Below are positions 46,466-63,613 of a stretch of DNA of 64,000 nucleotides, one piece after another. The translations under genes were made by a program, and so were the position numbers. The notes below the pieces were generated by a model. It did not search any database and was not told where the DNA came from. It was given only the letters and a program-made list of their open reading frames with translations. Every line of letters starts with the position of its first letter. The stretch's first letter is position 1. The DNA is from Gammaproteobacteria bacterium (GTDB lineage: Bacteria; Pseudomonadota; Gammaproteobacteria; JADZEE01): positions 66,103 to 130,102 of the forward strand of contig CBDDBH010000022.1 in NCBI GenBank assembly GCA_965225625.1. Reading direction: 5' to 3'.

Positions 46466-46483
46466 CGCAAGAAGAATTCTTTT

Positions 46484-48277
46484 TTAAAGGCGCGATGAAT
46501 TTCTCTGGTCGCGCTCGGCGCGCGTTCGCGCCGTTTGTACCTCATCCACGATCAGAGTGCTCGGATCCAGCACCACACCATATAGCCGCTCAGCGGCATC
46601 CAGCGAGACCTTTTCCTCGATTACGTCGCGTCTTACCGCTGCCGAGTCGCGCTCCAGGGGATTACCGACACCACAACCACCCTGGGTTATCACCTGCAGG
46701 TGATCGCCGTTTTGCCATGGATAACTGATCAATTCGTTGGCGTTGATCACTTTGCCTGCCGCCGTTGTAATGGACCGTCTGGCGGGTTCCGGTTGGGAAC
46801 CGCCGGCGATGACGGGGACGGGTCTGGCGGCAGGCGAAAAACCCTGACCGCCGCTGTGCAACCAGCCGTCACCGCCCAAATTGGTGATCTCGGTGCGCAT
46901 TGCTGTGCCGCCGCGCCAGCGTCCCGCGGCGCCGGTGTCCGGTTCGATTTCCCAGCAATCCCAGCGGTTCGGCGTAAAGTCTTCGTAGGCTTCAACGTCC
47001 GGATAACGAATGGAGCCGCTACATACCTCCGGCGCACCGGTCGACCAGCCATCGGTTCCCCATATGGCGCCGGTGCCGCTCGCCGCGTTAAAGAAATCGA
47101 TCGCCGAATACTCCATGTTTTTGCGGGGATCGAAGCCGGTAAGCACCTCGAAAGGTATCGAGCCCCAACCGGACGGCGTTTGCTCTGGCACGACCTTCGC
47201 GAGCGCGTCCCAAACACAATTGATAATCTGCTTGGCGGCGAAATTGGTCGCCGAACTCACCGGCGCCGGCAGTACCGGCTCGGTGACGGTGCCGGGTTTG
47301 GTGACAATGGTTACGGCTCGCTCGAGGCCTTGTGAGATGTGCTCGATGTTGCGTGCGAATGTGGTCAACAGCGCAATCCATGTGGCCCCCGCGGTGTTGG
47401 TGAGTGGACTGTTGATGTAACTCGGCACTTGCGGATCCGACTCGCTGAAATCGATAGTAATGTCGCTGCCTTTGATGGTCACGTCGCTGCGCACGGTAAA
47501 CGTTGGACAGCGGGGACCGCCTTCGCCGACAGACTCACCGTGATACGTGCCGTCCGGAATTTTTTCAATCTCCAGGCGAATAAGCCGTTCGGTATAGTCG
47601 AACAAATCGTCGAAATAATCCTTGATGGTCGGGACGCTAAAACGATCGACGATCTGCTGGATCTCCCGCACAGCGATCCGGTTAGTGCCGAACATCGCAG
47701 CGAGATCACCTTTCTGCACTTCGGGATAACGCATGTTGGCAAGGATCATGTTGAACACGTCCTTACAGATCTCGTCGTTGCTGATCACCCGTAGCGGCGG
47801 ATAGCGCACCCCCTCCGTGTAGATATCCGTTGCCGCGGCGTTGTAGCCGCCAGCCATCGACCCACCCACATCCATCTGGTGGGCGCGGTTGCCGGCCCAA
47901 AACAGCAGTTCACCGTCACGGAATACAGGCACCAGAATATTAAAGTCAGGAAGGTGTCCGCTGGCGCCGCCGGAGTAGGGATCGTTGGTCAAGAACTGGT
48001 CGCCGGGGTGAATGTCGTCCCCGAAAAAATCGATGATCGCGCGCACCGAATACGGGATCCCGTAAACATGTATCGGGATGCCTTCGTAGATGGCAACGGT
48101 ATTGCCCGCACCGTCGAACAACCCCACGGAGTAATCACGTGCTGCGAAATACGTCGGTGAGCGCGCAGTACGTTCCATGGTTGCCGTCATGCGTTCGGTC
48201 ACTGAGCGGAGCAGACAATTAATGATCTCGAAATCGAGCGGGTCTGTTCGCGTGCTGAAAATCGATTTACTGCTCAT
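46484..48277 (-). CDS. hydantoinase B/oxoprolinase-family protein (HyuB-like)
   Basis: Characteristic N-terminus DPLDFEIINCLLRSVTERMTATMERTARSPTYFAARDYSVGLFD; 597 aa. Confidence 0.85.
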   Translation of the reverse strand: MSSKSIFSTRTDPLDFEIINCLLRSVTERMTATMERTARSPTYFAARDYSVGLFDGAGNTVAIYEGIPIHVYGIPYSVRAIIDFFGDDIHPGDQFLTNDPYSGGASGHLPDFNILVPVFRDGELLFWAGNRAHQMDVGGSMAGGYNAAATDIYTEGVRYPPLRVISNDEICKDVFNMILANMRYPEVQKGDLAAMFGTNRIAVREIQQIVDRFSVPTIKDYFDDLFDYTERLIRLEIEKIPDGTYHGESVGEGGPRCPTFTVRSDVTIKGSDITIDFSESDPQVPSYINSPLTNTAGATWIALLTTFARNIEHISQGLERAVTIVTKPGTVTEPVLPAPVSSATNFAAKQIINCVWDALAKVVPEQTPSGWGSIPFEVLTGFDPRKNMEYSAIDFFNAASGTGAIWGTDGWSTGAPEVCSGSIRYPDVEAYEDFTPNRWDCWEIEPDTGAAGRWRGGTAMRTEITNLGGDGWLHSGGQGFSPAARPVPVIAGGSQPEPARRSITTAAGKVINANELISYPWQNGDHLQVITQGGCGVGNPLERDSAAVRRDVIEEKVSLDAAERLYGVVLDPSTLIVDEVQTARTRAERDQRNSSRL

Positions 48278-50364
48278 ACTTTGCTTGCCTCAATGAAAAA
48301 GTCGCCCAAGTGAGTGACTTTAAGGGACCACCCGGGCGGCACAACGACGGTGGTTGTTTCCTGCTCAACCACACACGGACCTTGCACCTGTGCGCCGGCG
48401 GGAATGGCATCACCGTCACAGACACGCGCATCCGTGAACCCGCTTTCCTCAAACCATACCTGGCGGCTACTGCGTAGATATTCGCGAGCCCCGCCGCCGT
48501 CAGCGGGCCATTGCTGAGACTTTACACTCGCCACCTTACCGAACGCGGTCAGCTTGAGATTAGCCACGAACGTTGGTTCAGTTTTGTCGTGATGCGCATA
48601 CAGCGTTTCATGACGCTCGTGGAAGCGTCCGGTGATCGTCCGCAGATCTTTTTCTGAATACCCCTGGCCATTGACCGGTGGCCAGGGGATGTCGATCTGC
48701 TGATATTGACTAACATATTTCATTTCGGCCGAGAGACTGTGCTGGCGCGCCGCCGGCTCAACCTTCTCGGCGTCGAGCATCGACTCGGCGGCTCCGAGCA
48801 TTTCCCGGTACATCTCATTTATTCGTGTCCAATCAAGCTGATCCGTCGGTGTCTCCACGCTGAATACCTGATCGTGCCGGATGTCTGATATCAGGCACCC
48901 CAAGGCACACAATATACCCGACGCGCGCGGGATCAAGACCGTGTCGATGTTCATCATTTTGGCGAGCTCGACCGCATGCCCGGCACCCGCGCCGCCGCCT
49001 GCCATCAACGTATAGTCTTTGGGATTCTCGCCGCGGCGCACGCTTATTACGCCAATCGCGTCCGCCATCTTTACCATGGTCAGCGTGACTATCGCCCGCG
49101 CCATTTCTTCTATGCTCATACCCTTGGGTTCGGCGATCTTGGCAATCGCCTCGCGCGAAGCCTCAACTCCGAGTTGGATCCCGCCGGCAATGGCACTCGC
49201 GGGATTGAGCCGTCCCAGCACCAGGTTCGCGTCTGTGACGGTGGGTTCAGTGCCGCCCTTCATGTAGCACGCGGGACCGGGCGCCGCCCCGGCGCTTTGC
49301 GGCCCGACGTGCAGGCCGCCGGCCTGGTCCAGCCAGGCAATGGTGCCGCCACCGGCGCCGATTGCATGAACGTCTACCGACGGCAGGCCGACATGGTAGA
49401 CACCGGCGACTGTCTGTTCCGAGCGGACCGAGATCTGCCTGTTCTTCACCAGTGAGGCATCGAAACTGGTACCGCCCATGTCGATCGTAATGAGATTGTC
49501 GATGCCGTATTCGTTGCCAAGCCAGATTGCGGCAACGGGACCGGATGCGGGCCCCGACGCAAGTGTGCTGACCGCCTTGGTGACAATGGCATGCGGACTC
49601 ATGACGCCGCCGCTGGAGCTTACGATTAACAGTGCACCTGCATACCCCGCCGCGTGGAGCTTGGCTTCGATGCGGCTCATGTAGGTGCTGATAATCGGCC
49701 CGATATAAGCATTGACGGTGGTGCTTTGAAACCGCAGATACTCGCCCAGCGTTGGCGAGATTTGATGGGAGAGGCTCAGGTACGCTTCGGGATACTCCTC
49801 GCGGCAGATCTCAGCAGCCCGCAGTTCGTGCGCCGGGTTGCGTAACGACCAGAGAAAACAAATTGCGATAGCCGCGACATCCTCTTTAGCGAAGCGCTTT
49901 AACGCGGCGCGAACGTCCTCCTCGTTTAGCGGAGTGAGGACAGAGCCGTCCGCTTGAATGCGTTCGGTAATCGGCCGACGCAGGTTTCGCGGACATAGCG
50001 GCCGCGGCTGCGGATAGGTGTAGTCGTAGAGATATTCCAGCTCGCGCATGCCGCGCCTGACTTCGATGGTATCGCGCACACCTTTGGTGGTGAGCATGCC
50101 GACCTTGGCACCGGCGCGTTCGATAACTGCATTGGTCGTCACCGTAGTGCCATGACAGATCCGGCTGACGTTGCCGAGGAACTCGCGCAGCGTCAGCTCG
50201 TTCGCGGTTGCGGCCTGCTCCAACGCATCGGTAAACCCGATTGATTGATCTGCCGGCGTGGTCGGTGTTTTGACGAGAGTGCGATTACCGTGTCCGTCGA
50301 TCGCGACGAGATCGGTGTAGGTGCCGCCGATATCAATACCGACGTCGAAGCGTTGATCGGTCAT
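48274..50364 (-). CDS. hydantoinase A/oxoprolinase-family protein (HyuA-like)
   Basis: FDVGIDIGGTYTDLV N-terminal ASKHA fold. 4-bp overlap with the HyuB-like gene. Confidence 0.85.
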   Translation of the reverse strand: MTDQRFDVGIDIGGTYTDLVAIDGHGNRTLVKTPTTPADQSIGFTDALEQAATANELTLREFLGNVSRICHGTTVTTNAVIERAGAKVGMLTTKGVRDTIEVRRGMRELEYLYDYTYPQPRPLCPRNLRRPITERIQADGSVLTPLNEEDVRAALKRFAKEDVAAIAICFLWSLRNPAHELRAAEICREEYPEAYLSLSHQISPTLGEYLRFQSTTVNAYIGPIISTYMSRIEAKLHAAGYAGALLIVSSSGGVMSPHAIVTKAVSTLASGPASGPVAAIWLGNEYGIDNLITIDMGGTSFDASLVKNRQISVRSEQTVAGVYHVGLPSVDVHAIGAGGGTIAWLDQAGGLHVGPQSAGAAPGPACYMKGGTEPTVTDANLVLGRLNPASAIAGGIQLGVEASREAIAKIAEPKGMSIEEMARAIVTLTMVKMADAIGVISVRRGENPKDYTLMAGGGAGAGHAVELAKMMNIDTVLIPRASGILCALGCLISDIRHDQVFSVETPTDQLDWTRINEMYREMLGAAESMLDAEKVEPAARQHSLSAEMKYVSQYQQIDIPWPPVNGQGYSEKDLRTITGRFHERHETLYAHHDKTEPTFVANLKLTAFGKVASVKSQQWPADGGGAREYLRSSRQVWFEESGFTDARVCDGDAIPAGAQVQGPCVVEQETTTVVVPPGWSLKVTHLGDFFIEASKV

Positions 50365-50432
50365 CGGCCCATTCTACCGAAATAGAAGGCCTACTCACCA
50401 TTACGATTGAGCATTGGTCAGTTGATGATCAC

Positions 50433-52058
50433 TCACATATTTGCGCTCACTTCCCCTTTCTCCCACATCTGGCGTAACGCGAACTTCTGAACTTTGCCGG
50501 ATCCGGTGAGCGGAAACGCGTCCACGCGTATCCATATTTTGGGTACTTTATGGGCGGCAATCTGTTCCCGTACAAAACCGCTTAACGCTTCGCCGTTGAC
50601 GCTGGAACCCGATTTAATACGCAAAAAGGCTGCGACTTGCTCGCCCCATTTATCATCGGGTATGCCAACCACGGCGACATCGATTACGTCTGGATGACTG
50701 AATAGAAGTTCCTCGATTTCGCGCGGATAAATATTCTCCCCGCCGCGCACAATCATATCTTTTAGCCTGCCTGTCACGCGGCAGTAGCCACGCTCGTCCA
50801 TGCTGCATAAATCTCCCGTATGCAACCAACCATCCGCATCGACGGCTTCGGCCGTCTCGTCAGGCATGTCGTAATACTCTTTCATCACACCGTATCCGCG
50901 CGCACACAGCTCACCGGATCGGCCGACGGGCAGAGTGCTGCCGTTGTGTGGATCGACAATCTTCACTTCGGTTTGCGGCAAGGGGTAGCCAATGGTTTCG
51001 GATTTGTCCTGTGGTGTATCTTCGAGGCTGGTCTGGGTAATGATCGGTGAGCATTCGGTCAAACCGTAGACGTTAGTGAACCCTTCAGTTACTAATTCCT
51101 CGTAGCGGCGCACGAGTTCGGCGGGCGCGATGGATCCACCGGTCAGTACTGTACGCAGCGACGTAAGATCCCGGGTTATAAAGTCAGGATGTTCCTCGAT
51201 GCTCACAAGCATCGTCGGTACGCCGCTCACAACGTCCGCGTGCTCGCTTTCGATAAGCTCCAGTACCAGCCCGGGATCGAAATGCTCCACCAGTACCAGA
51301 GTCGCCAACGACTGATGCGCACCCAGCGTACTGCCGACACATCCGGAAGCGTGAAACTGTGGTAGCGGTGAGACGAGAACCGAGCCGGCGCGCATACGCC
51401 AGCGTTGGGCCACGAAGCGGGAATTGTTGGTGATCCCGTGATGCCGCAGTACCACCCCTTTGGGGAACCCGGTGGTGCCGGAGGTGTACTGGATCAGTGC
51501 AGCGTCATCCGTGCTGACCGTGGGTAAGGTTTGCGCGGAGTCGCCGCTTCGTAGGAATTCGGCCCAATCTGCGAAATCGAAGGTTTCGCGTAGTGCTGGT
51601 AATTTGGCTCGCACCGCCGCTACGGTCTGCGTCATTTGATTGCCGCGAAATTCACTGACATGGAATAGACCTGCGGCGCGCGATTGACGCAGTACGTATT
51701 CCAGTTCCTTTGGTTTATACGTTGGGTTCGCCGTGACCAGCACGATTCCGGCCAGACCGGCGCCATATTCCACAAACACCCACTCCGGAACGTTGTTGGC
51801 CCACACTGCGATGTGCTCACCGGGTTTGAAATGAGCGAGTAAGGCGCGGGCAACCTGTTCGGATATCTCGAACAGCTCTGGAAATGTCCAGCGATGCCGC
51901 AGCGCCACAGTCGTCGCTCCGGCAACCAGCGCGGTACGCTGTGGCGCAGCAGCCGCGGCGTCACGTAATACGCTGCCAATGGTAGTTTCGAAGACCGGTT
52001 CCGATGTGTCCGCCGGCCAGTGGGACTCGGTTAAATTCATGCGCCGGCGTATGTCCAC
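50433..52058 (-). CDS. AMP-dependent acyl-CoA synthetase/ligase
   Basis: YTSGTTGFPKGV and GYGLTE motifs. Alternative start MNLTESHW at 52040. Confidence 0.8.
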   Translation of the reverse strand: MDIRRRMNLTESHWPADTSEPVFETTIGSVLRDAAAAAPQRTALVAGATTVALRHRWTFPELFEISEQVARALLAHFKPGEHIAVWANNVPEWVFVEYGAGLAGIVLVTANPTYKPKELEYVLRQSRAAGLFHVSEFRGNQMTQTVAAVRAKLPALRETFDFADWAEFLRSGDSAQTLPTVSTDDAALIQYTSGTTGFPKGVVLRHHGITNNSRFVAQRWRMRAGSVLVSPLPQFHASGCVGSTLGAHQSLATLVLVEHFDPGLVLELIESEHADVVSGVPTMLVSIEEHPDFITRDLTSLRTVLTGGSIAPAELVRRYEELVTEGFTNVYGLTECSPIITQTSLEDTPQDKSETIGYPLPQTEVKIVDPHNGSTLPVGRSGELCARGYGVMKEYYDMPDETAEAVDADGWLHTGDLCSMDERGYCRVTGRLKDMIVRGGENIYPREIEELLFSHPDVIDVAVVGIPDDKWGEQVAAFLRIKSGSSVNGEALSGFVREQIAAHKVPKIWIRVDAFPLTGSGKVQKFALRQMWEKGEVSANM

Positions 52059-52232: not shown

Positions 52233-52892
52233 ATGATCACGAGTGAATTGAAGGGCGAGGTCGAGGTTCTCACGCTGGATCGGTCGCCAGTCAACGCGTT
52301 TAATTTTGGGATGCTGGAGCGCGTTACAGAAGCGATTTTCTTGGCGCCCCAGCGCGCTGCGGCCGTGTTGCTTACCGGCTCGGGCAATTGCTTTACTGCC
52401 GGTCTGGATATCAAGATGTTTAACAAACTTAGTGCCAGTGAACGCGATGAACTACAGAGCAAATTGGACGAGATTGTTGATGCATTCGCGCTGTGCCCAA
52501 TCCCCATTGCGGCAGCCATCAACGGCCATGCGATAGGACTTGGCGCGATATTAATCGCGTTGGCCGACTATCGGGTTGCGAGTCAGGGAGAGTTGCAGAT
52601 ATTTTTACCCGAGGTCAAAGTAGGGCTGGTACTGCCGCAGCGGGTCCATAACATTATTAGCCGTCTGGTTGGTAGCAGGCGCGCCGACCGCCTAATTGTT
52701 GAAGGTTTTACGCTGTCGTCCGAACAGGCTTTAGCGTGGGGATACCTCGATGAGCTGTTACCAGCCGAAGGGCTGATGCAGGCTGCGGATGCCTGGTGCC
52801 GGAACATCTTGGCGCTGCCTCGGGAAATTATGCTGGAAACACGCGCGCAGGCACGTGCCGACATCCGAGCCATTGTTGAAAAGACAGTGTGA
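52233..52892 (+). CDS. enoyl-CoA hydratase/isomerase (crotonase) family protein
   Basis: Crotonase fold with oxyanion-hole region GSGNCFTAGLDIK. Confidence 0.7.
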   Translation: MITSELKGEVEVLTLDRSPVNAFNFGMLERVTEAIFLAPQRAAAVLLTGSGNCFTAGLDIKMFNKLSASERDELQSKLDEIVDAFALCPIPIAAAINGHAIGLGAILIALADYRVASQGELQIFLPEVKVGLVLPQRVHNIISRLVGSRRADRLIVEGFTLSSEQALAWGYLDELLPAEGLMQAADAWCRNILALPREIMLETRAQARADIRAIVEKTV

Positions 52893-54511: not shown

Positions 54512-55036
54512 TTACCCTGCCTCGACCGATAAACCGATAACAACCGCCGTGGAGCAGTGATACACCGCGCTCTTGGTGCCCAGGCACCAATCGATGTCGT
54601 TGCTCTTCTGGGGACGGTACATCGGCTCTTCACGCTCGTTGCGATTACAGACACAACGGCCACAACTGCTCTTGCCACAACAATCGTTATACGAAATGAC
54701 GTAATCCTTGCCATCCGCGGGGTTGAGGCAGGTCCCTATCCAGGTGATGGGCGAGGGCTCGGTGCCAGGTGGGCATTGCGTTTGTGAACCGCCGCAACAG
54801 GCGCACAGGAAACCATCGATCGCACAATGGCGCCAGTATTCGCAGGTCCCCGGATCACCCGGATCTTCGGCGGGCCCGGGCGCGCGTGACGGCGACTCTG
54901 CGCGTGCGATCGGTAATACAGGAATGGTCGCAGCGCCGACCATGGCGGTGCCGAACTTGGATAGAAAACTGCGTCGGGAAGTCTGCCGTGCAAGGTTGCG
55001 TGAGAAACGTTCGGACCAACGGTCTAACCAGTTCAT
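54512..55036 (-). CDS. mauA: methylamine/aromatic-amine dehydrogenase light (TTQ-bearing) subunit
   Basis: Tat leader TSRRSFLSKFGTAMVGAATIPVLPIAR, near-identical in pattern to known MauA leaders. Mature domain CEYWRHCAIDG...CPPGT...YNDCCG...PMYRP...NDIDWCLG...YHC carries both TTQ tryptophans and a Cys-rich disulfide core. Confidence 0.88.
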   Translation of the reverse strand: MNWLDRWSERFSRNLARQTSRRSFLSKFGTAMVGAATIPVLPIARAESPSRAPGPAEDPGDPGTCEYWRHCAIDGFLCACCGGSQTQCPPGTEPSPITWIGTCLNPADGKDYVISYNDCCGKSSCGRCVCNRNEREEPMYRPQKSNDIDWCLGTKSAVYHCSTAVVIGLSVEAG

Positions 55037-55071: not shown

Positions 55072-56214
55072 TTAGGGAGTTTGGATCACGGTCAGCGTAC
55101 TGGTCGCGCTCAGTTCAACACCGCGCAGACGTTTACCGGTTTTTGCGTCTAACACCTGTAGTTCCGGGCTTTCCAAATTGACGGTATACAGTAGTGGTTT
55201 GTCGTCGCTGCTCACGTTGACCGAGGTCGCATGATGTTCTAGTTCGATACGCTGCACACGCTTCTTTGAGACAAGGTCGTATACCCAGATCTGCTCGGCC
55301 GGTGCTTTGTGTGAGCCGGGCCCGCCCTGATGCATAAGCACGTACATCCTTTTGCTCGCGCTGTGGATGGCGAAGAGCTGATAGCCACCAGGCAGCCAGT
55401 TGTCGGTGCGATCAGCGTCTGTTTGCAGTGACCATGGTTTGGCCAATTTCGGGGTTGCGCCGGCGCCGTCGAATGCGTAGACATCGCCCTGGAAGGATAG
55501 GAAATACCACGTCGAACCGTCTCTTACCGCATCCTCATTGACCAGATCCTTGGACGGGTCGAAAAGCTGTTTGCTCCGCGACTTCTTCGCCGCCTTGCCT
55601 GTATCGTCCAGCGTAATGGTCAGCAGGCTGCCGTCGGCACAAAGCATATGTACGTTGCGCGCATCGCCCGGGTATACGAAAGCGCAGCCGGCCGTGTCGA
55701 TCTCGCCAATGAATTTGCGCGCTTTGGTATCGACTACGGTCACAGTTTGCGCCGGCGTGAAGTTGTAGCTGAGCAGAAAACGGTCGTCGTCGGTTAAACC
55801 CATGTGCACGAGCGTGGGGATACTCAACAGTTGTTTCGGCGGCAAGATTACCTCGCCAACGGCGTCCAGAGTCGTTGGATCGAAGATGCTGAGTACGTCC
55901 GTGCGTACCCCGCGGGTGCCGCGCGAATAAAATGTATCGGTCGAATAGATGACGCTGTAGTCCGAAGGCATCAGCAGCGCATCGTGGAAGCCGCCGGTGG
56001 ACAACATGCCCAGGACGGAGCCATCGTCTGCGTTCACCAGGTAGGCGCGACCGTCGATCATGTTGAAAAAGGCGATGTCGTTAACCCAGACCCAGTGCGG
56101 GTCGAGTTTCGCCGGTAGTTTGGCAACGCTGATCTGTTCAGGTTTCAGTTCCGCCTGTGACACCGATGACCAGAAGATCAAACTTAGCGCGAGGACTGAG
56201 AATAGTCGTGCCAT
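55072..56214 (-). CDS. mauB: amine dehydrogenase heavy subunit (7-bladed beta-propeller)
   Basis: Sec signal MARLFSVLALSLIFWSSVSQA. A 380 aa propeller-sized protein 36 bp upstream of mauA in the same orientation. Confidence 0.7.
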   Translation of the reverse strand: MARLFSVLALSLIFWSSVSQAELKPEQISVAKLPAKLDPHWVWVNDIAFFNMIDGRAYLVNADDGSVLGMLSTGGFHDALLMPSDYSVIYSTDTFYSRGTRGVRTDVLSIFDPTTLDAVGEVILPPKQLLSIPTLVHMGLTDDDRFLLSYNFTPAQTVTVVDTKARKFIGEIDTAGCAFVYPGDARNVHMLCADGSLLTITLDDTGKAAKKSRSKQLFDPSKDLVNEDAVRDGSTWYFLSFQGDVYAFDGAGATPKLAKPWSLQTDADRTDNWLPGGYQLFAIHSASKRMYVLMHQGGPGSHKAPAEQIWVYDLVSKKRVQRIELEHHATSVNVSSDDKPLLYTVNLESPELQVLDAKTGKRLRGVELSATSTLTVIQTP

Positions 56215-56320: not shown

Positions 56321-57127
56321 TCAAGCTTGCTCCCACCAACTGATGACCTGCCAGGTATTGCCGTCCACTGCCGGCAACGCCCGTTCGCCGGTTTTGTAGT
56401 CCGCCAGCCAACTCAGGGCAAGCGTTTCACCTTCGCGCCACGGCAACGTTGACAGTCGAATTATGTAGTCGTCGTCTGCAGAATCGCGCTGCGTGTAAGA
56501 GAATTCGCAATCGACCAACGCCCTCACTACATCGAGATCCTCTTTTGCCAGCTCTGCCAATATCGGCAGGGCAACTTCGGCATCGATGGGTTGCACACGA
56601 TCGCGCGCGAACACTGCGTGCGTGTCGGTTACCAACAGGCAGGTCTTCGACGCAGCGTTTTCCAGTACGAGGTGTGCGGCGAATGATTGCGATGCAGATT
56701 CCACTCGCCAGTCTTCTTCGTAGGCACCACTTGGCGCCCACTCGATCATGCAAGCGTTGTTCTCGCACCATTGGAACCAACCCGGCTCTGGAAAATTGAC
56801 GACGGGTTGCAGCGTAAAACCATGCCCACCGGGCGCCCAGTTCGCGGTCGGATACGGCTTCGCGTCCACGTCGCAGGTTGTTATCACACAGGAGCAATCT
56901 TGCGCCGCCAGTGCCAATAATTCGTCATAGTTGCACGCGGCGAGCGCATCACGGTCGGACAAATCTGGACGGTCCGCGGGGATCCGCATGTCGGCGGCTG
57001 CGGACGAGGTTTGCAACCACAGCACGCGCGTGGAGGTGTCTTCGTCACCGTTTTTGTAACGAATGTATCGCCGTCGCCAGCAACCGATCATCTCGGCGGG
57101 GACGGTGGGGGCGGCCTTATTCTGCAT
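56321..57127 (-). CDS. Cys-rich cytoplasmic hypothetical protein at the head of the mauBA transcription unit
   Basis: 268 aa, no signal peptide, Cys clusters (DCSCVITTCD, WCENNACMIEW), no CxxCH; no family recognised. Confidence 0.45.
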   Translation of the reverse strand: MQNKAAPTVPAEMIGCWRRRYIRYKNGDEDTSTRVLWLQTSSAAADMRIPADRPDLSDRDALAACNYDELLALAAQDCSCVITTCDVDAKPYPTANWAPGGHGFTLQPVVNFPEPGWFQWCENNACMIEWAPSGAYEEDWRVESASQSFAAHLVLENAASKTCLLVTDTHAVFARDRVQPIDAEVALPILAELAKEDLDVVRALVDCEFSYTQRDSADDDYIIRLSTLPWREGETLALSWLADYKTGERALPAVDGNTWQVISWWEQA

Positions 57128-57425: not shown

Positions 57426-58433
57426 CTATTTTTTCCCAGCAAGATTCTCCGCGGTCAGGCAAAGGATCTCATACATAATTTGTTTCCCGGCTTGCGCGGT
57501 ATTGGTCGTTGCGTCGTATTCTGGTGCGACTTCGACGAGGTCGCCGCCGATGATGTCCAGTCCGCGCAAACCGCGCAGGATCTGTTGTGATTCGCGCGTG
57601 GTCAGACCACCGGTTTCCGGCGTTCCTGTCCCGGGCGCGTACACAGGATCCAGGCCGTCCACGTCAAAGCTGACATAGGTCGGGCCGTCGCCCACTACTT
57701 CGCGTGCTTTGGCGATGGTTGCGTCAACGCCCATTTTTACGAAGTCCTCTATATGAATGACCGTCATGCCCGATTCGTAGGAAAACTCCCAATAGGGTTC
57801 GGCCGCGCCACGAATACCGATCTGGATGGTGCGTTCGGGATCCAGCACGCCAGCGAGTACCGCGTTACGGAACGGACCACCGTGGTGAAATTTGTGATCA
57901 TCAAACCCACCCATGGTGTCGCAGTGCGCGTCGAAATGGACCAGCCCGACCGGTTCGTCGCGGCCCAGCGCCTTGAGAATAGGGAAGGTAATCGAATGGT
58001 CTCCACCGGCGGAAACGCACCTGATGCCTTTGTCCATTACACCGTGGTAATACTCTTCGATGGTGGCGATACCTTTTTCCAGGCTGAAGCCGAACAGCGG
58101 CACATCGCCCGCGTCCGCGATCTTGCACAGCGCGAACGGATTAACGGTCGTCTGGTGGTTGTACGGCCCGACCGACATTGACATGTCACGGATGGCCCTG
58201 GGACCGAAGCGCGCGCCCGGGCGGTGGACGACGCCGCGATCGAAGGGCACGCCGATGAGAGCGATGTCTAATTCGTCGAGGTTCTCGTTGTAGTCGGCGT
58301 CGAGCAGCGTGCGGATACCAACATAAAGCTTGCCGGCAGTTAGCATAGCTGCGGCGAACTCCGGGTTGTCGACCTCGTCTAAAGGACGATCAGCGTATTT
58401 CGCTCTTAATGCTTCCAGTTTCTTTTGATCCAT
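57426..58433 (-). CDS. agmatinase/guanidino-acid hydrolase (arginase family, ureohydrolase)
   Basis: Arginase-family motifs GGDHSITFP, DAHCDT, SFDVDGLDPVYAPGTGTP and IQIGIRG, with no frame breaks. Confidence 0.85.
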   Translation of the reverse strand: MDQKKLEALRAKYADRPLDEVDNPEFAAAMLTAGKLYVGIRTLLDADYNENLDELDIALIGVPFDRGVVHRPGARFGPRAIRDMSMSVGPYNHQTTVNPFALCKIADAGDVPLFGFSLEKGIATIEEYYHGVMDKGIRCVSAGGDHSITFPILKALGRDEPVGLVHFDAHCDTMGGFDDHKFHHGGPFRNAVLAGVLDPERTIQIGIRGAAEPYWEFSYESGMTVIHIEDFVKMGVDATIAKAREVVGDGPTYVSFDVDGLDPVYAPGTGTPETGGLTTRESQQILRGLRGLDIIGGDLVEVAPEYDATTNTAQAGKQIMYEILCLTAENLAGKK

Positions 58434-58517: not shown

Positions 58518-59588
58518 CTACCCTTTGTCCGGCGCCTTCCAGATATCGCGCTCCTGCATAAGTGCTATTTGGCGATCGCCGATTTCTTGCTTGTACCAGT
58601 CATGGTTACCCGGGACTTTGTCCAGGTAAAGATTCTTGGGGTAAATCGGCTGTTCGTATATGAGTTGCGCCATCTCGGTCCGTACGTCTTTCATGAAGTT
58701 GGTTATCTGCGCGCTGGCCCGATGATGCCGTAGCGCTTCAATGTTTATCGGGCCTGACACAAACGTCGAGCCGTTGGTATCGCGCTGTTTGCCGACGATA
58801 GTGCCACGGTAATCGACAATCATCGATTGGCCGCCACCAGCGTCAATGCCGGTTTCGCTGTCCGGAAACAAGTGATAACTACCGATGTTCGGCGCGACGA
58901 CATACATGTTGTTATCGAGCGCGCGGGCGCGGTTGGTTATCTCGAACGCATCGTTTTGAGTAAATGGCGCTGGGGTGGATCCTCGATACACGACTTCGGC
59001 GCCGTTCATCGCCAGTCCTCGCCCGTTCTCCGGATAACTGCCCTCAATGGCCATCATGATCCCAAGTCGTCCGATCTCGGTGTCCGCCACCGGCCAGAAG
59101 GCATTGAGAGTGCGGCCGTATTTTTCGACCCACCAGTCGAACAGGTCGTGCGGCGATACCGAGCGTTCGCAAGGTGCCAGTGGCGTGACTTTGTGATGCT
59201 TTAAGATCACCTCGCCGTGGGGATCAATGACGAAGCCGACGTTGAAGAATAAATCTTTCCAGTCCTCGTGCCGGGCTTTCGCCTGGGCCATGATGTAGAC
59301 GTTGTACTCTTTGGCAAGCTCGCCTAGCTGGTCGGTTTCCGGACCTGGAATATCGATGGCGCAGGTTCGAGTGTACTCAGCATGGTCGGCGTCCAGCGCC
59401 TCGTCATTGAAGCCCTGTAGAGCGCCTTCGGGTATGACGAGCAGACGCACCGGGATATCGAGGTTCGACAGCCAGAACGCGGCTTTGGTCAGACTTTGCA
59501 GATGATCTAGGTTCTTTTGAATGTCTTCGCGCTTACGGATCCCCCAGAAGGTGGGGATGAGGCCAACGGCGTTATACGGTTCGATCAT
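58518..59588 (-). CDS. formamidase/aliphatic-amidase homologue (nitrilase superfamily, AmiF-like) with catalytic Cys replaced by Ala
   Basis: Aligns along its length to AmiF-type formamidase (LVIPEGALQGFN Glu motif; VIDPHGEVILKHHK Lys motif). The Cys position in the motif xICHDGxIPE reads MAIEGSYPE (codon GCC). Likely start MIEPYNAV. Confidence 0.6.
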   Translation of the reverse strand: MIEPYNAVGLIPTFWGIRKREDIQKNLDHLQSLTKAAFWLSNLDIPVRLLVIPEGALQGFNDEALDADHAEYTRTCAIDIPGPETDQLGELAKEYNVYIMAQAKARHEDWKDLFFNVGFVIDPHGEVILKHHKVTPLAPCERSVSPHDLFDWWVEKYGRTLNAFWPVADTEIGRLGIMMAIEGSYPENGRGLAMNGAEVVYRGSTPAPFTQNDAFEITNRARALDNNMYVVAPNIGSYHLFPDSETGIDAGGGQSMIVDYRGTIVGKQRDTNGSTFVSGPINIEALRHHRASAQITNFMKDVRTEMAQLIYEQPIYPKNLYLDKVPGNHDWYKQEIGDRQIALMQERDIWKAPDKG

Positions 59589-59714
59589 TGTCAACTCCTC
59601 GAATAATCCTGCACTCTTTATATATATGCTGGCACCCAAGCGCTACCAGCGCGTCTCGCCAGCGAGTATCGCGCCGGTTTACACTTAGCTTTCACGTCCC
59701 AGAGCAGAACAACA

Positions 59715-60062
59715 ATGACCAACCTTTTGCCCTCCGAATTCGCTGATCTGGAGCCCTACCTGGTTTGGGCCCAGTCAACGGAACTGGCTCGCCACCAGGT
59801 TCGCGTTTCCCGATCCATTGAGGAGATCCGCGCATTTTACGACGCCGTGCTCCCCCGCATCGAGGCGATCCTCGAGTATTTGAACGCATTCCCCTTAGAC
59901 GACATGCCAGAGCAGGAGCATCGATTGCTGGAGTTGTCACTGGGTCTGGTCGAGGCCGCGAATGCGGTCGAGATGTTCGAAGAGCCGGGCATGCGTTACG
60001 GCTTCCCTATTGAGCGATTTACACCAAAGCACCACAAGACCGTGCAGGCACGGGGAGATTGA
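59715..60062 (+). CDS. hypothetical protein (115 aa) translationally coupled to the downstream Rieske oxygenase
   Basis: Its stop TGA overlaps or abuts the Rieske gene start; no family recognised. Confidence 0.4.
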   Translation: MTNLLPSEFADLEPYLVWAQSTELARHQVRVSRSIEEIRAFYDAVLPRIEAILEYLNAFPLDDMPEQEHRLLELSLGLVEAANAVEMFEEPGMRYGFPIERFTPKHHKTVQARGD

Positions 60063-60064
60063 AG

Positions 60065-61261
60065 ATGAACGCTGAAACTCACCCTTTTACCAGCGCCTAT
60101 CCGGAACTCGGTACCGGGCCAGTGCCCGTTGAACCTTATATCAGCAAAGACTATTTCGAGCGGGAATGCGCGCAGATATTCGCCCGCACCTGGATCAACG
60201 TCGGCTGCGAAGAACAGATCCCCAATCCAGGTGACTATTTTGTCCGCGAGCTTGCCGTTTGCAACACGTCGGTCATCGTTATGCGTGGCAAGGATAAGCG
60301 CGTGCGCAGCTTCCACAATATGTGTTCGCATCGCGGTAATCCGGTCGCCTGGGAAACGCAAGGGACCTGTAAAGGCTTACTTGTCTGCAACTTCCATGGC
60401 TGGAGTTATGACACCGAGGGAAAGCTTGCATATGTCACCGATGAAGAGCGGTTTTTCAACGTTGATCGCGCCAAAAATGGGCTGACCGCAATAGCCACCG
60501 ATACCTGGGAGGGGTTCATCTTTATTAACCTGGCGCCAGAGCCGCGCGAAAGCCTAGCGGAGTTTTTGGGGCCTGCGGCGGCGGCGATGGATGGCTATCC
60601 TTTTTCGCAATACTCATACACTTACGTGTATGAGGTGGACGACGGGGTTAACTGGAAAGTACTGACCGAGGCGCAGCTCGAAGGTTGGCACGTACCGGTG
60701 CTGCACAAAAAAACGCTGGCGAAATCAGTGGTCAACAAAGGCGAGCTGTTTCGCCACGCGGCGTTGCAGCGTTATGGCCGGCACGCACTGGTTTCCTCGC
60801 ATGCACCTGAGGTTTACACGCCAACGCCAGTTACCGCGGTCAGTATGAAATACGGTGTTGGAACATTCGACGCCTTTTCCGTGGAATCCGAGAACAGCGG
60901 CAATCGCGACATGAAATGGCACGGCGCATTCGACCTTTACCACGTCTTCCCGAACATGTTTCTGGGCCTGCTGCGCGGTACCTATTTCACTTACAACATC
61001 TGGCCGTTAGCAGTTGATCGCAGTATGTGGGAGATCAGGGTTTTCTACCCGCCGGCGGCCAACGCCGGGCAGTTATTCAGTCAGGAATTCGGTAAAGCGG
61101 GGATCCGGGATACCTTACGCGAAGATGCATTTACCCACGAGAAAATCCAATCGGTGCTCAAGTCTGGGGCGAAGCGGCAATTTCATTTGCAGGACGAAGA
61201 ATTGGTGGTAAGACATTTTTTGCGTGTGGTCGACGATTACGTACAGGGAAATTACGAATAA
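60065..61261 (+). CDS. Rieske non-haem iron oxygenase alpha subunit
   Basis: CSHRGNPVAW...CNFHGWSY Rieske motif; mononuclear Fe ligands in EGWHVPVLHKK; GGAG RBS before ATG 60065. Confidence 0.8.
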   Translation: MNAETHPFTSAYPELGTGPVPVEPYISKDYFERECAQIFARTWINVGCEEQIPNPGDYFVRELAVCNTSVIVMRGKDKRVRSFHNMCSHRGNPVAWETQGTCKGLLVCNFHGWSYDTEGKLAYVTDEERFFNVDRAKNGLTAIATDTWEGFIFINLAPEPRESLAEFLGPAAAAMDGYPFSQYSYTYVYEVDDGVNWKVLTEAQLEGWHVPVLHKKTLAKSVVNKGELFRHAALQRYGRHALVSSHAPEVYTPTPVTAVSMKYGVGTFDAFSVESENSGNRDMKWHGAFDLYHVFPNMFLGLLRGTYFTYNIWPLAVDRSMWEIRVFYPPAANAGQLFSQEFGKAGIRDTLREDAFTHEKIQSVLKSGAKRQFHLQDEELVVRHFLRVVDDYVQGNYE

Positions 61262-61279: not shown

Positions 61280-62026
61280 ATGGACAAAGAACTACAAGAA
61301 CTGAAAACGCTGTTGCTGGACGTCAAGCAAGGTCTCGATCAGCTGCAGGATGTCGACGCTTTGCAGCGATTGATTGTCAACTACGCGCGCGGCTGTGATC
61401 GCGGCAATGATCCAAGCCTGATCGGTCCGCTGTTTTCGCAAGATGGCACCTGGGAGTGTAAAGGCTTCGGCAAATACATCGGTCGCGACAAAGTCGCAAA
61501 GGGTCTGCACGGCATCGCCGGTGAAAAAATATGGTGGTCGTTGCACTACATGATCTCGCCGCTGATTGACATCGCGCCTTCGGGTGATAGCGCCACGGGG
61601 TTCTGGTATCTGTGGGAGGCCGCCACCATACCGAACGAGGAAACCAACGACGCAGAAGCACACTGGATCGGCGGCACCTATGACACGGAGATGGTAAAGC
61701 GTGACGGCGAATGGTTCTTCAAGAGTATGGAACTGAAGTTGCACATGGCGAGCGGCTACGACCATGGCTGGGTAAAAAAGCGCTTCCCAAATGGGACCCG
61801 CAAACAACCGTATTTCGAAAACCTGGATGCCGGCAGCTACCATTGGTGTGCCTGTGGCCGCTCCAACAACCAACCGTTTTGCGACGGCTCGCACAAAGAG
61901 ACCAAGCGCACGCCGCTGGAATTCAAAGTGGAGGTCCAGGAAAACGTTGTGCTGTGCGGTTGTAAATACTCCAAGACCAAACCGTATTGCGATGGCTCGC
62001 ACTTGAATCTGAACCTAGATGGGTGA
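61280..62026 (+). CDS. NTF2/SnoaL-like domain fused to two CDGSH-type [2Fe-2S] domains
   Basis: N-terminal ~165 aa SnoaL-like region, then CACGRSNNQPFCDGSH and CGCKYSKTKPYCDGSH (two complete CDGSH signatures). Confidence 0.7.
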   Translation: MDKELQELKTLLLDVKQGLDQLQDVDALQRLIVNYARGCDRGNDPSLIGPLFSQDGTWECKGFGKYIGRDKVAKGLHGIAGEKIWWSLHYMISPLIDIAPSGDSATGFWYLWEAATIPNEETNDAEAHWIGGTYDTEMVKRDGEWFFKSMELKLHMASGYDHGWVKKRFPNGTRKQPYFENLDAGSYHWCACGRSNNQPFCDGSHKETKRTPLEFKVEVQENVVLCGCKYSKTKPYCDGSHLNLNLDG

Positions 62027-62035
62027 TCTGCAGCA

Positions 62036-63613
62036 ATGAGAAAAATACTGCCCCCCGGCATTGACCAGACAACCCTGACTAAAGCACTGGACGCCTTCGC
62101 GGACGTGGTTGGCGAACAGTGGGTGTTCGCCGACGAAGCCTCCGGATTAGAGAGTTATCTCGACTCCTACGCCATTGTTGAGCCGGATTACTACGCGCCG
62201 TCCGCGGCCGTTGCGCCAGATAGCGTTGAGCAGGTGCAGGCGATCCTGAAGATCGCAAACGAATACAAAATTCCGATCTGGACGATCTCTACCGGCAAGA
62301 ATCTCACCTACGGCGGGCCGGCGCCGCGTCTGCCCGGCAGTGTCGTTCTGGATCTGAAACGCATGAACCGCATTCTCGAGGTCAATGAGGAATTCGGTTA
62401 CTGCCTGGTCGAACCGGGGGTCAGCTATTTCGACCTGTACGAATACCTGCAAGAGAACAACATCAAACTATGGCTCAGCGTACCCAGCCCGGGTTGGGGC
62501 AGCGTGCTGGCAAACGCGCTCGAGCGTGGCGGCGGTCACACGCCCTATGGCGATCACTTCGGTATGCAATGCGGTATGGAAGTGGTTCTCGCCGACGGTG
62601 AGATCGTGCGTACCGGCATGGGCGCGCTGCCTAACAACAACACCTGGCAGTTATTCAAATATGGCTACGGGCCGTATCTGGACGGCATCTTCACGCAGTC
62701 CAACTACGGCGTGGTAACCAAGATGGGAATGTGGTTGATGCCTGAGCCGCCAGGATACCGCCCGTTTATGCTGACGTTTCCGCGCGAAGACGATATCGAA
62801 CCGCTGGTCGACATCATGCGACCGCTTAAGATTGCCGGTGTCATACCCAATGCGGCAGTGATCGTGAATGTGCTGTTTCAGGCAGCAGTGGACGTTAGCA
62901 AGTCAGAATACTACGACGGTACTGATCCCATTCCCGAGAGCGCCATTAAGAAGATCATGGCGGACAGGGACATCGGCATGTGGAACTTCTTCGGTGCGCT
63001 GTATGGCGATGAACGGATCATGGACGCGCAGTGGCAAACTATTAAAGACGCCTTCTCGGCGATACCTGGTACCAAGTTCTATCTGCGGGAAGACCGCCCG
63101 GACGATCCTGTGATGAAGTATCGCGCCAAAGGTATGTCCGGTGTGCCCAATCTTTCCGAATTCGGTTTCATCAACTGGCGTGGCAACGGCGGTCATATTG
63201 ATTTCTCACCGGTGTCGCCTTCCACCGGCGCCGACGCGCTAAAGCAATACCGAATGATCCGCGATCGCTGTCATGAATATGGTTTCGATTATCTCGGGGT
63301 ATTCGTGCTCGGGTGGCGAGAGATGCACCATATCTCCACGTTGGTATTCGACAAAACCGACGCGGCTGATAAGAAACGCGCGCACGATATGTTTGCAATT
63401 CTTATCGAAGAGGCCGCTGAGCTGGGATACGGCAGTTATCGAACGCACTTGGAGTATATGAATCAGGTTGCGGAAATGTTCAGCTTCAATGATCACTCTC
63501 TAATGCGCTTGAACGAACGACTCAAAGACGCGTTGGATCCGAATGGCATTCTCGCTGCGGGTAAGTCCGGGATCTGGCCTAAATCCTTGCGCGAAAACAG
63601 GGGTCCGCTATGA
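62036..63613 (+). CDS. VAO/PCMH-family FAD-linked oxidase (vanillyl-alcohol oxidase / 4-cresol dehydrogenase flavoprotein-like)
   Basis: PCMH-type FAD-binding domain (PIWTISTGKNLTYGG ... VVLDLKRMNRILEVNEEFGYCLVEPGV) with a VAO-like cap domain; 525 aa. Confidence 0.8.
   Translation: MRKILPPGIDQTTLTKALDAFADVVGEQWVFADEASGLESYLDSYAIVEPDYYAPSAAVAPDSVEQVQAILKIANEYKIPIWTISTGKNLTYGGPAPRLPGSVVLDLKRMNRILEVNEEFGYCLVEPGVSYFDLYEYLQENNIKLWLSVPSPGWGSVLANALERGGGHTPYGDHFGMQCGMEVVLADGEIVRTGMGALPNNNTWQLFKYGYGPYLDGIFTQSNYGVVTKMGMWLMPEPPGYRPFMLTFPREDDIEPLVDIMRPLKIAGVIPNAAVIVNVLFQAAVDVSKSEYYDGTDPIPESAIKKIMADRDIGMWNFFGALYGDERIMDAQWQTIKDAFSAIPGTKFYLREDRPDDPVMKYRAKGMSGVPNLSEFGFINWRGNGGHIDFSPVSPSTGADALKQYRMIRDRCHEYGFDYLGVFVLGWREMHHISTLVFDKTDAADKKRAHDMFAILIEEAAELGYGSYRTHLEYMNQVAEMFSFNDHSLMRLNERLKDALDPNGILAAGKSGIWPKSLRENRGPL

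What the first reader, a model, noticed from the sequence alone, without database searches (positions are those of the whole stretch)
58518..59588. AmiF/AmiE-like amidase homologue with the catalytic cysteine replaced by alanine
The protein aligns along its length with nitrilase-superfamily formamidases, including the Glu and Lys of the catalytic triad. At the invariant Cys of the xICHDGxIPE motif the sequence reads MAIEGSYPE, and I confirmed the codon as GCC on the minus strand. This points to a pseudo-enzyme, a changed mechanism, or a two-nucleotide error. It is co-transcribed with an intact agmatinase/guanidino-acid hydrolase at 57426-58433, which suggests a guanidino or amide-nitrogen salvage pair.
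Basis: partly seen in the sequence, partly recalled or inferred. Interest (0 to 1): 0.6.

Follow-up and report, generated by a model that had tools for sequence, protein, structure and literature searches.

The report
Conserved amidase homologue lacking its cysteine
This gene encodes a formamidase-like protein whose essential catalytic cysteine is naturally an alanine; the change is shared by hundreds of strongly conserved relatives in bacteria and archaea, so it is a real protein of unknown function, not an error.

Summary
ORF 58518-59588 (-) encodes a 356-aa nitrilase-superfamily protein whose closest solved relatives are AmiF and AmiE. Codon GCC at 59049-59051 puts Ala180 where AmiF has its nucleophile Cys166. 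Glu54, Lys133 and Glu141 are intact.

It is not a sequencing error. The identical protein occurs in at least 6 contigs from several samples. All 120 closest homologues (67-94% identical; Proteobacteria, Binatia, Planctomycetes, Actinobacteria) carry Ala, and so do three plasmid-borne homologues from Tsukamurella and haloarchaea. All four Ala codons are used, and dN/dS is 0.02-0.12.

The Ala clade is monophyletic, sister to a Gly clade, and nested inside an uncharacterised Cys-bearing subfamily. No substitute nucleophile was gained with the loss.

The agmatinase (GpuA-like) neighbour is real and intact, but the pairing is lineage-specific: it appears in none of the 173 loci from other lineages. 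The commonest neighbour elsewhere is a TrpB-like PLP enzyme (91 of 175 loci, all Alphaproteobacteria where the organism is known).

The protein cannot be a classical thiol amidase. My best guess is thiol-independent use of the retained Glu-Lys-Glu pocket. A ligand-binding pseudoenzyme is nearly as likely. The function is undetermined, and I found no published description.

The parts
58518..59588 (-). CDS of the 356-aa Cys-less nitrilase-superfamily protein (E54-K133-E141-A180)
   Evidence: The start is supported by the SD sequence and by the N-termini of homologues.
59595..59600 (-). Shine-Dalgarno-like GAGGAG, 6 nt upstream of ATG 59588
   Evidence: Read directly from the sequence.
59049..59051 (-). 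GCC codon for Ala180, at the position of the superfamily's nucleophile Cys (AmiF Cys166)
   Evidence: Ala in 121/121 close homologues. Codons GCG 87, GCC 4, GCT 2, GCA 2 across 95 loci.
59427..59429 (-). GAA codon for Glu54 (catalytic general-base Glu of the PEG motif)
   Evidence: 121/121 Glu.
59190..59192 (-). AAA codon for Lys133 (catalytic Lys)
   Evidence: 121/121 Lys.
59166..59168 (-). GAA codon for Glu141 (second Glu of the C-E-E-K tetrad)
   Evidence: 121/121 Glu.
59094..59165 (-). Subfamily-specific insertion relative to AmiF (residues 142-165, RSVSPHDLFDWWVEKYGRTLNAFW; predicted helices 146-157 and 161-164). It is shared with the Cys-bearing sister sequences.
57426..58433 (-). Downstream intact arginase-family ureohydrolase (GpuA/GbuA-like), probably co-transcribed in this lineage only
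   Evidence: Adjacency is seen only in loci L081-83 and L103-105.

Best explanation
Shown: the gene encodes a genuine, strongly selected member of an old, monophyletic Cys-less (Ala) clade. The clade sits inside an uncharacterised AmiF/AmiE-related subfamily of the nitrilase superfamily. Because it has no thiol at the nucleophile elbow, it cannot form the thio-acyl enzyme that defines catalysis in this superfamily. It is therefore not a formamidase, an aliphatic amidase or a beta-ureidopropionase in the classical sense.

Inferred: Glu54, Lys133 and Glu141 are invariant, the active-site loops are more conserved than the rest of the protein, and no replacement nucleophile appeared when Cys was lost. 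I therefore think the pocket is still used catalytically without an enzyme nucleophile. In this reading Glu54 activates a water molecule, and Lys133 with the backbone oxyanion hole stabilises the intermediate. That machinery is the deacylation half-reaction of the canonical mechanism. It would act directly on a substrate whose carbonyl is already activated, such as a thioester or another labile acyl or carbamoyl compound. The small Ala (Gly in the sister clade) would make room for the water or for the substrate's own leaving-group atom.

The substrate is unknown. The pairing with the guanidino-acid hydrolase is a local recruitment into a catabolic island, not the family's core role.
For: Ala, Glu, Lys and Glu are invariant in 121/121 sequences. 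The Ala is kept through synonymous change. dN/dS is 0.02 against the 94%-identical relative although dS is saturated at 1.6, and the median over 288 pairs is 0.116. The E-K-E-A clade is monophyletic, sister to an E-K-E-G clade, and nested among E-K-E-C sequences. Glu-Lys-Glu is therefore retained down to 45% identity after the Cys loss. Haloarchaeal copies at 53-57% identity also have Ala. No Ser, Cys, Thr or His residue was gained with the Cys loss. Active-site loops have entropy 0.50 against 0.81 for the rest, permutation p about 0.05. The gene is usually free-standing with no conserved partner across phyla, and no Cys-bearing paralogue lies within 64 kb of the window or within 10 kb in 79 of 80 loci. 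That fits an autonomous activity better than a dead subunit. The canonical deacylation step uses Glu-activated water (review PMC10781810).
Against: There is no biochemical evidence. Engineered Cys-to-Ala mutants of superfamily members are solved with bound amide rather than turning it over (for example 6ypa). Retained Glu-Lys-Glu and a conserved pocket are equally expected for a non-catalytic ligand binder. The conservation excess of the pocket loops is only marginal (p about 0.05). No genomic context points specifically to thioesters or other activated acyl compounds.
Confidence: 0.4

Rival explanations
1. The protein is a non-catalytic pseudoenzyme. It keeps the Glu-Lys-Glu pocket only to bind a small amide- or ureide-like ligand, or it keeps its oligomer interfaces. 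It would then act as a sensor, a sequestering protein or an allosteric partner. In Alphaproteobacteria the partner could be the adjacent TrpB-like PLP enzyme, and in this window the adjacent ureohydrolase.
For: The nucleophile is absent and nothing replaces it. The unusually slow evolution suits a protein constrained by interfaces. A TrpB-like gene is the immediate same-strand neighbour in 41 of 95 loci in both gene orders, and is adjacent in 50 of 80 metagenome loci. Distant relatives include tandem double CN_hydrolase proteins in which one domain has Ser instead of Cys, which would be an active/inactive pairing. A pseudoenzyme partner in the tryptophan synthase system has a published precedent in plants (PMC12727527, listed).
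Against: Pseudoenzymes usually lose the remaining catalytic residues, but here all three are invariant, including in the Gly sister clade. No partner gene is conserved across phyla. The TrpB-like linkage is confined to Alphaproteobacteria and is absent from Binatia, Actinobacteria, Planctomycetes, haloarchaea and this window. No Cys-bearing paralogue lies nearby.
Confidence: 0.35
2. The protein is still a covalent hydrolase, but the nucleophile has moved to another residue. Candidates are Cys76, which is specific to most of the Ala clade, or a residue of the 142-165 insertion (S143, S145, H147, D148).
For: C76 is present in 120/121 close homologues, whereas Cys-bearing sisters have hydrophobic residues there. 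H147 and D148 are invariant or nearly so in the clade.
Against: C76 is missing in the Cys-less members P0133 and P0132, and B. cereus AmiF, which has its normal Cys, also has a Cys at this position. The insertion with PHD..D.W is shared with Cys-bearing sisters, so it is not a compensation. The formal comparison found only G9 and P206 co-varying with the Cys loss. D148 is Asn in P0121.
Confidence: 0.08
3. The protein would work with the co-transcribed agmatinase-family enzyme as a guanidino or amide-nitrogen salvage pair, for example acting on or binding urea or a ureido/amide product.
For: The two genes are on the same strand with an 84-bp gap and no terminator-like site. The pair is conserved in the window's close relatives. 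The neighbour is GpuA-like and would release urea. AmiF binds urea (5g3o). One relative lies next to a UrtA/UrtB-like transporter with urease genes nearby.
Against: An arginase-family gene is adjacent in none of the 80 genome loci or 80 metagenome loci, nor in any other context examined. The family's function therefore cannot depend on it. Without Cys the protein cannot hydrolyse amides or ureides by the known route.
Confidence: 0.07
4. The finding is an artefact: a sequencing or assembly error at the codon, or a decaying pseudogene.
For: None beyond the a priori oddity of the substitution.
Against: An identical protein is found in at least 6 contigs from several independent samples. Ala is present in 121/121 homologues and in haloarchaea. 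The ORF is intact with an SD sequence. dN/dS is 0.02-0.12.
Confidence: 0.01

Closest known systems
AmiF formamidase (H. pylori 2dyu/2e2k; B. cereus 5g3o/5g3p)
   Same: It has the same alpha-beta-beta-alpha nitrilase fold (Foldseek E 1e-21, rmsd 2.4 A over about 295 columns). Glu, Lys and the second Glu align, as does the G-x-[YF]-P-E elbow motif. The length is similar and both have a C-terminal extension.
   Different: Sequence identity is only 21-25%. The nucleophile Cys166 is Ala180. AmiF W136/137 is Leu137 and D168 is Glu182. There is a roughly 20-residue insertion after the second Glu. The NF009803 score is 69.5 against a cut-off of 406. The protein cannot form the acyl-enzyme.
Aliphatic amidase AmiE (P. 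aeruginosa 2uxy; G. pallidus 2plq)
   Same: It shares the fold and the Glu/Lys/Glu positions.
   Different: Sequence identity is 17-19%. The NF009802 score is 50.3 against a cut-off of 427. There is no Cys.
Cys-bearing sister subfamily (for example Paracoccus aminophilus pAMI1 WP_020952768, Streptomyces WP_266793760; P0131, P0140, P0141)
   Same: These are 39-48% identical to the window protein. They share the N-terminus (MIEPY..), the 142-165 insertion (S..PHD..D.W) and the C-terminal YE.PI.PKNLY motif.
   Different: They retain the Cys (GTICCSDGEYPE, ICMETSYPE). In actinobacteria they lie in an amidohydrolase / M20 peptidase / nitrilase-like operon. They are also uncharacterised.
Catalytically dead paralogues that act as partners (AdoMetDC prozyme, PMC6221367; plant TSB-like pseudoenzyme, PMC12727527)
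   Same: These are homologues of an enzyme that lack a key catalytic residue yet are under selection.
   Different: They have a defined active partner. No conserved partner is found here across phyla, and the remaining catalytic residues are fully retained.

Membership tests
Nitrilase superfamily (PF00795 CN_hydrolase) | Alpha-beta-beta-alpha sandwich fold / Pfam profile match | tested here: met
   PF00795 scores 100.2 bits against a cut-off of 23.2. The AF2 model has pLDDT 85.9. The top Foldseek hits are all superfamily members.
Nitrilase superfamily (PF00795 CN_hydrolase) | Catalytic Glu and Lys of the triad | tested here: met
   E54 and K133 align to the AmiF Glu and Lys and are invariant in 121/121 sequences.
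Nitrilase superfamily (PF00795 CN_hydrolase) | Nucleophile Cys at the elbow after the strand (C-E-K triad; PMC10781810) | tested here: not met
   Ala180, codon GCC at 59049-59051. Ala in 121/121 homologues.
Nitrilase superfamily (PF00795 CN_hydrolase) | Second Glu of the C-E-E-K tetrad | tested here: met
   E141 aligns to the AmiF second Glu and is invariant.
AmiF formamidase (NCBIfam NF009803 equivalog) | Profile score above the curated cut-off | tested here: not met
   69.5 bits against a cut-off of 406.
AmiF formamidase (NCBIfam NF009803 equivalog) | Residues reported as essential: Cys166, D168 (H. pylori), W136 (B. cereus) (PMC10781810) | tested here: not met
   The aligned residues are A180, E182 and L137.
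AmiF formamidase (NCBIfam NF009803 equivalog) | Hydrolysis of formamide | not testable with these tools
   This needs an enzyme assay.
AmiE aliphatic amidase (NCBIfam NF009802 equivalog) | Profile score above the curated cut-off | tested here: not met
   50.3 bits against a cut-off of 427.
Beta-ureidopropionase / N-carbamoyl amidases (the label IMG gives this clade) | Cys nucleophile and family-level profile match | tested here: not met
   There is no Cys. The only related NCBIfam hit is aguB TIGR03381 at 38 bits against a cut-off of 410. The IMG names are listed.
Pseudoenzyme (homologue of an enzyme without activity) | Loss of a residue essential for the ancestral chemistry | tested here: met
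   Cys is replaced by Ala.
Pseudoenzyme (homologue of an enzyme without activity) | Absence of any catalytic activity | not testable with these tools
   This needs biochemistry. Retention of E-K-E argues for caution.
Ureohydrolase / agmatinase family (neighbour 57426-58433) | Profile above cut-off and the Mn-ligand motifs GGDH, DAHxD and DxDxxDP | tested here: met
   TIGR01230 scores 202 against a cut-off of 174, and PF00491 gives 4.8e-86. The motifs GGDHS, FDAHCD and FDVDGLDP are visible in the translation. The best PDB match is GpuA 3nip at 1e-90.

The most novel reading that the evidence does not exclude
The nitrilase superfamily is defined by its Cys nucleophile. The most novel reading not excluded is that it contains an old, abundant, bacterial and archaeal clade that is functional without any enzyme thiol. 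One version is a new thiol-independent catalytic mechanism, in which Glu-activated water, or a substrate that supplies its own sulfur or leaving group, uses only the 'deacylation half' of the ancestral machinery. The other version is a nitrilase-fold regulatory partner of TrpB2-type PLP enzymes in tryptophan/indole metabolism.
Probability: 0.4. Interest if true: 0.8.

Novelty: new variant of a known kind. Interest (0 to 1): 0.6.

Why it matters
Textbook and database logic treats Glu-Lys-Cys as obligatory for CN-hydrolases. Automatic pipelines already label this Cys-less clade 'beta-ureidopropionase' or 'aliphatic amidase'. Those names describe chemistry it cannot perform by the known mechanism. 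The clade is abundant in soil metagenomes, with single 90%-identity clusters of 671 and 1135 sequences. It spans several bacterial phyla and haloarchaea, and it evolves unusually slowly. In many Alphaproteobacteria it sits between adk and rpsM in the ribosomal gene cluster. Working out what it does would reveal either a new mechanism in a well-studied superfamily or a new class of bacterial pseudoenzyme. It would also correct thousands of annotations. An A180C revertant offers a simple route to the ancestral substrate.

Tried and rejected
1. Sequencing error or pseudogene is rejected.
2. Obligate pairing with the agmatinase is rejected as a family trait: 0 of 80 genome loci and 0 of 80 metagenome loci have it.
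3. A nearby Cys-bearing paralogue as hetero-oligomer partner was not found in the 64-kb window or in 79 of 80 loci.
4. A compensating nucleophile was sought by clade-specific residue analysis. Only G9 and P206 track the Cys loss. C76 tracks most but not all Cys-less members.
5. The 142-165 insertion as a new catalytic module is rejected as a compensation, because Cys-bearing sisters have it too.
6. A riboswitch or other RNA clue upstream was not found. Rfam gave no hits in the window.
7. Anti-phage defence involvement was considered because several loci have RM, TIR or dynamin neighbours. There were no PADLOC hits, and the contexts are too heterogeneous.
8. Literature searches for a described Cys-less nitrilase-superfamily clade, or for a TrpB-like/nitrilase pair, found nothing.
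Active-site distances could therefore not be measured.
10. PMC3165270, the paper on the C-E-E-K tetrad, is not held.
11. A recurring indole/tryptophan theme in neighbouring genes was noted only as a lead. The genes are TrpB-like, cyclase-family plus indolepyruvate oxidoreductase, and StyA-type monooxygenases.

Full report
**1. The observation**

The minus-strand ORF listed at 58518-59639 most likely starts at ATG 59588. GAGGAG sits 6 nt upstream, and all homologues begin MIEPY. The 356-aa product matches PF00795 CN_hydrolase at 1.6e-28. Its best solved relatives are the formamidases AmiF (5g3o, 2dyu, 2e2k; E about 1e-15) and the aliphatic amidase AmiE.

The local alignment is ungapped around the nucleophile elbow: LGIMMAIEGSYPE against LAVCICHDGMFPE. 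It puts Ala180 under the AmiF Cys. Glu54, Lys133 and the second Glu141 of the C-E-E-K tetrad are present.

An AlphaFold model built on 61 sequences has pLDDT 85.9. Its best Foldseek matches in the PDB are AmiF, AmiE and the G. pallidus amidase, at 2.4 A rmsd over about 295 columns and 17-25% identity.

**2. It is not an error**

- The exact protein is in the public collection from NCBI, ENA and Logan. It is encoded on at least 6 contigs from several samples.
- The 120 closest homologues are 67-94% identical. Their source labels include Syntrophobacteraceae, Gemmataceae, Xanthobacteraceae, Amycolatopsis, Mycobacterium and Tsukamurella. All of them have Ala180, Glu54, Lys133 and Glu141, giving 121/121 with the query.
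- Across 95 loci the Ala codon is GCG 87, GCC 4, GCT 2 and GCA 2. The Ala has therefore been maintained through synonymous change.
- dN/dS against the 94%-identical relative is 0.02, although dS is saturated at 1.6. The median over 288 pairs is 0.116.
- Haloarchaeal megaplasmid copies at 53-57% identity read ISLAIEGAYPE.

**3. Where the clade sits**

I searched one representative per 50%-identity cluster of 15 billion proteins. There were 243 relatives at E <= 1e-30. In a neighbour-joining tree of full-length representatives, the E-K-E-A sequences form one clade. This clade is sister to a small E-K-E-G clade (P0129, P0132). Both are nested among E-K-E-C sequences that are 35-48% identical.

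The Cys-bearing sisters share several features with the window protein:
- the N-terminus;
- a roughly 20-residue insertion after Glu141 (S..PHD..D.W, predicted helical);
- the C-terminal YE.PI.PKNLY motif.

The insertion is therefore a subfamily trait and not a compensation for the lost Cys. Other isolated lineages also lack Cys: Ala in P0211, P0212 and a Flammeovirga plasmid copy, and Ser in P0139 and P0261. The loss is recurrent.

I compared Cys-less with Cys-bearing members position by position. Only G9 and P206 track the loss, and no Ser, Cys, Thr or His appears. Cys76 is characteristic of most of the Ala clade. It is missing in P0133 and P0132, and B. cereus AmiF also has a Cys at this position.

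The five loops that carry or flank the active-site residues are more conserved than the rest of the protein. Mean entropy is 0.50 against 0.81, permutation p about 0.05.

**4. Genomic context**

In the window the gene is followed, after 84 bp with no terminator-like site, by an intact arginase-family enzyme. That enzyme's best solved relative is P. aeruginosa 3-guanidinopropionase GpuA (1e-90), followed by guanidinobutyrase. Around the pair lie the following genes:
- two Rieske oxygenases;
- a SnoaL-CDGSH protein;
- a VAO-type flavoprotein;
- methylamine-dehydrogenase-like heavy and light chains;
- two proteins with no family hit.

The same island occurs in close relatives whose proteins are 94-100% identical to the window's. 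An arginase-family gene is adjacent in none of the 80 genome loci and none of the 80 metagenome loci.

The commonest neighbour elsewhere is a TrpB-like PLP enzyme (NCBIfam PRK12391, 733-749 bits). It is on the same strand and is the immediate neighbour in 41 of 95 loci, 18 downstream and 21 upstream. It is adjacent in 50 of 80 metagenome loci. In many of these loci the order is secY-adk-[this gene]-[trpB-like]-rpsM, inside the ribosomal gene cluster. A LivK/UrtA-like binding protein is divergent in about 21 loci.

Outside the Alphaproteobacteria the neighbours are heterogeneous. Examples are a cyclase-family protein plus indolepyruvate oxidoreductase in Tsukamurella, StyA-type monooxygenases in Sciscionella, and GST, AhpC, DUF2252, restriction-modification genes and others elsewhere. 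No Cys-bearing paralogue lies nearby. The Cys-bearing sisters in actinobacteria sit in an amidohydrolase / M20 / nitrilase-like operon.

**5. Mechanism**

In the canonical mechanism, Glu deprotonates Cys, and the thiolate attacks to form a thio-acyl enzyme. Glu then activates water for deacylation, and Lys stabilises the tetrahedral states (PMC10781810). With Ala at the elbow the first half is impossible, so the protein is not a classical amidase. That much is shown.

What it does instead is inference. Three lines of evidence argue that the pocket still matters:
- Glu-Lys-Glu and Ala (or Gly) are completely retained across divergence down to 45% identity;
- the pocket loops are conserved;
- the gene usually stands alone.

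I favour thiol-independent catalysis (confidence 0.4). The machinery left intact is that of the deacylation step. It could hydrolyse or transfer an already activated acyl or carbamoyl group, with the small residue making room for water or for the substrate's own leaving-group atom.

A ligand-binding or partner pseudoenzyme is nearly as likely (0.35). The tight TrpB-like linkage in Alphaproteobacteria, the very slow evolution, and the existence of tandem double CN_hydrolase proteins with a Ser-bearing domain among distant relatives all speak for it.

**6. Comparison with known families**

The protein has the superfamily fold and three of the four tetrad residues. It fails the defining Cys test. 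It scores far below the AmiF, AmiE and AguB equivalog cut-offs (69.5/406, 50.3/427, 38/410). I therefore file it as a Cys-less variant within an uncharacterised AmiF/AmiE-related subfamily, not as a member of any named enzyme family. Public annotations call it 'nitrilase-related carbon-nitrogen hydrolase', 'aliphatic amidase' or 'beta-ureidopropionase'. The last two are not tenable as stated. Full-text searches found no description of such a clade.

**7. Verdict**

The feature is real, conserved and unexplained. The error option is excluded, and the pathway link to the agmatinase is local only. Novelty: a new variant of a known kind. Interest: 0.6.

Noticed in passing
L010:12717-14081; L092:5460-6824; 91 of 175 related loci: A TrpB-like PLP enzyme (PRK12391/TIGR01415) is the commonest immediate neighbour of the Cys-less gene in Alphaproteobacteria. 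It is on the same strand and occurs in both gene orders. In many soil lineages the pair sits between adk and rpsM in the ribosomal protein gene cluster.
   Followed up: partly
window 54512-55036 (-) and 55072-56214 (-): These are methylamine-dehydrogenase-like light (TTQ) and heavy chain genes. Both score below the NCBIfam MADH cut-offs (169/197 and 210/454), and I saw no mauG-type maturation genes beside them. They may encode a different amine dehydrogenase, such as an aromatic amine dehydrogenase.
   Followed up: no
window 61280-62026 (+): This is a fusion of a SnoaL_4 domain with two CDGSH iron-sulfur motifs. It lies between a GbcA-like Rieske oxygenase (60059-61261) and a VAO-type FAD oxidase (62036-63613). 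It may be a dedicated electron-transfer or accessory protein of the oxygenase.
   Followed up: no
window 56321-57127 (-) and 59715-60062 (+): Two conserved ORFs (268 aa and 115 aa) flank the pair. They have no Pfam, NCBIfam, PADLOC or PDB match, and they are retained in the related contigs L081-83 and L103-104.
   Followed up: partly
window 44333-52058 (-): An upstream block encodes an S15 X-Pro dipeptidyl-peptidase-like hydrolase, hydantoinase/oxoprolinase B and A subunits, and an AMP-binding ligase. An enoyl-CoA hydratase lies at 52233-52892. This is another amide or cyclic-amide catabolic module in the same neighbourhood.
   Followed up: no
P0149, P0163, P0174, P0195, P0214, P0234 (distant relatives, 640-745 aa): These proteins have two tandem CN_hydrolase domains. 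In P0163 and P0214 the C-terminal domain has Ser instead of the nucleophile Cys, which suggests built-in active/inactive domain pairs.
   Followed up: partly
Clusters of P0013 and P0048 (1135 and 671 members): IMG/JGI automatically names these Cys-less proteins 'beta-ureidopropionase'. One NCBI record calls a Mycobacterium simulans member 'Aliphatic amidase'. These are probably systematic misannotations.
   Followed up: partly
L096, L097 (Haladaptatus, Halorientalis megaplasmids); L102 (Flammeovirga plasmid): Ala-bearing homologues occur on haloarchaeal megaplasmids at 53-57% identity. A separate Ala-bearing lineage at 39% identity (IGLCLAMGGSYPE) occurs in a Bacteroidota plasmid. This suggests horizontal spread and recurrent Cys loss.
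   Followed up: partly
L001 (homologue of the gene); L082:9156-10167: The L001 homologue carries an in-frame TAG. In L082 the arginase-family gene is split into 237-aa and 102-aa ORFs. These are probably MAG assembly errors or local pseudogenisation.
   Followed up: no
L091/L098 (Tsukamurella), L090 (Sciscionella): In actinobacteria the gene lies directly after a cyclase-family (arylformamidase-like) gene and near indolepyruvate oxidoreductase, or downstream of StyA1/StyA2B-type monooxygenases. Together with the TrpB-like neighbour, this hints at an indole or tryptophan-related ligand.
   Followed up: no
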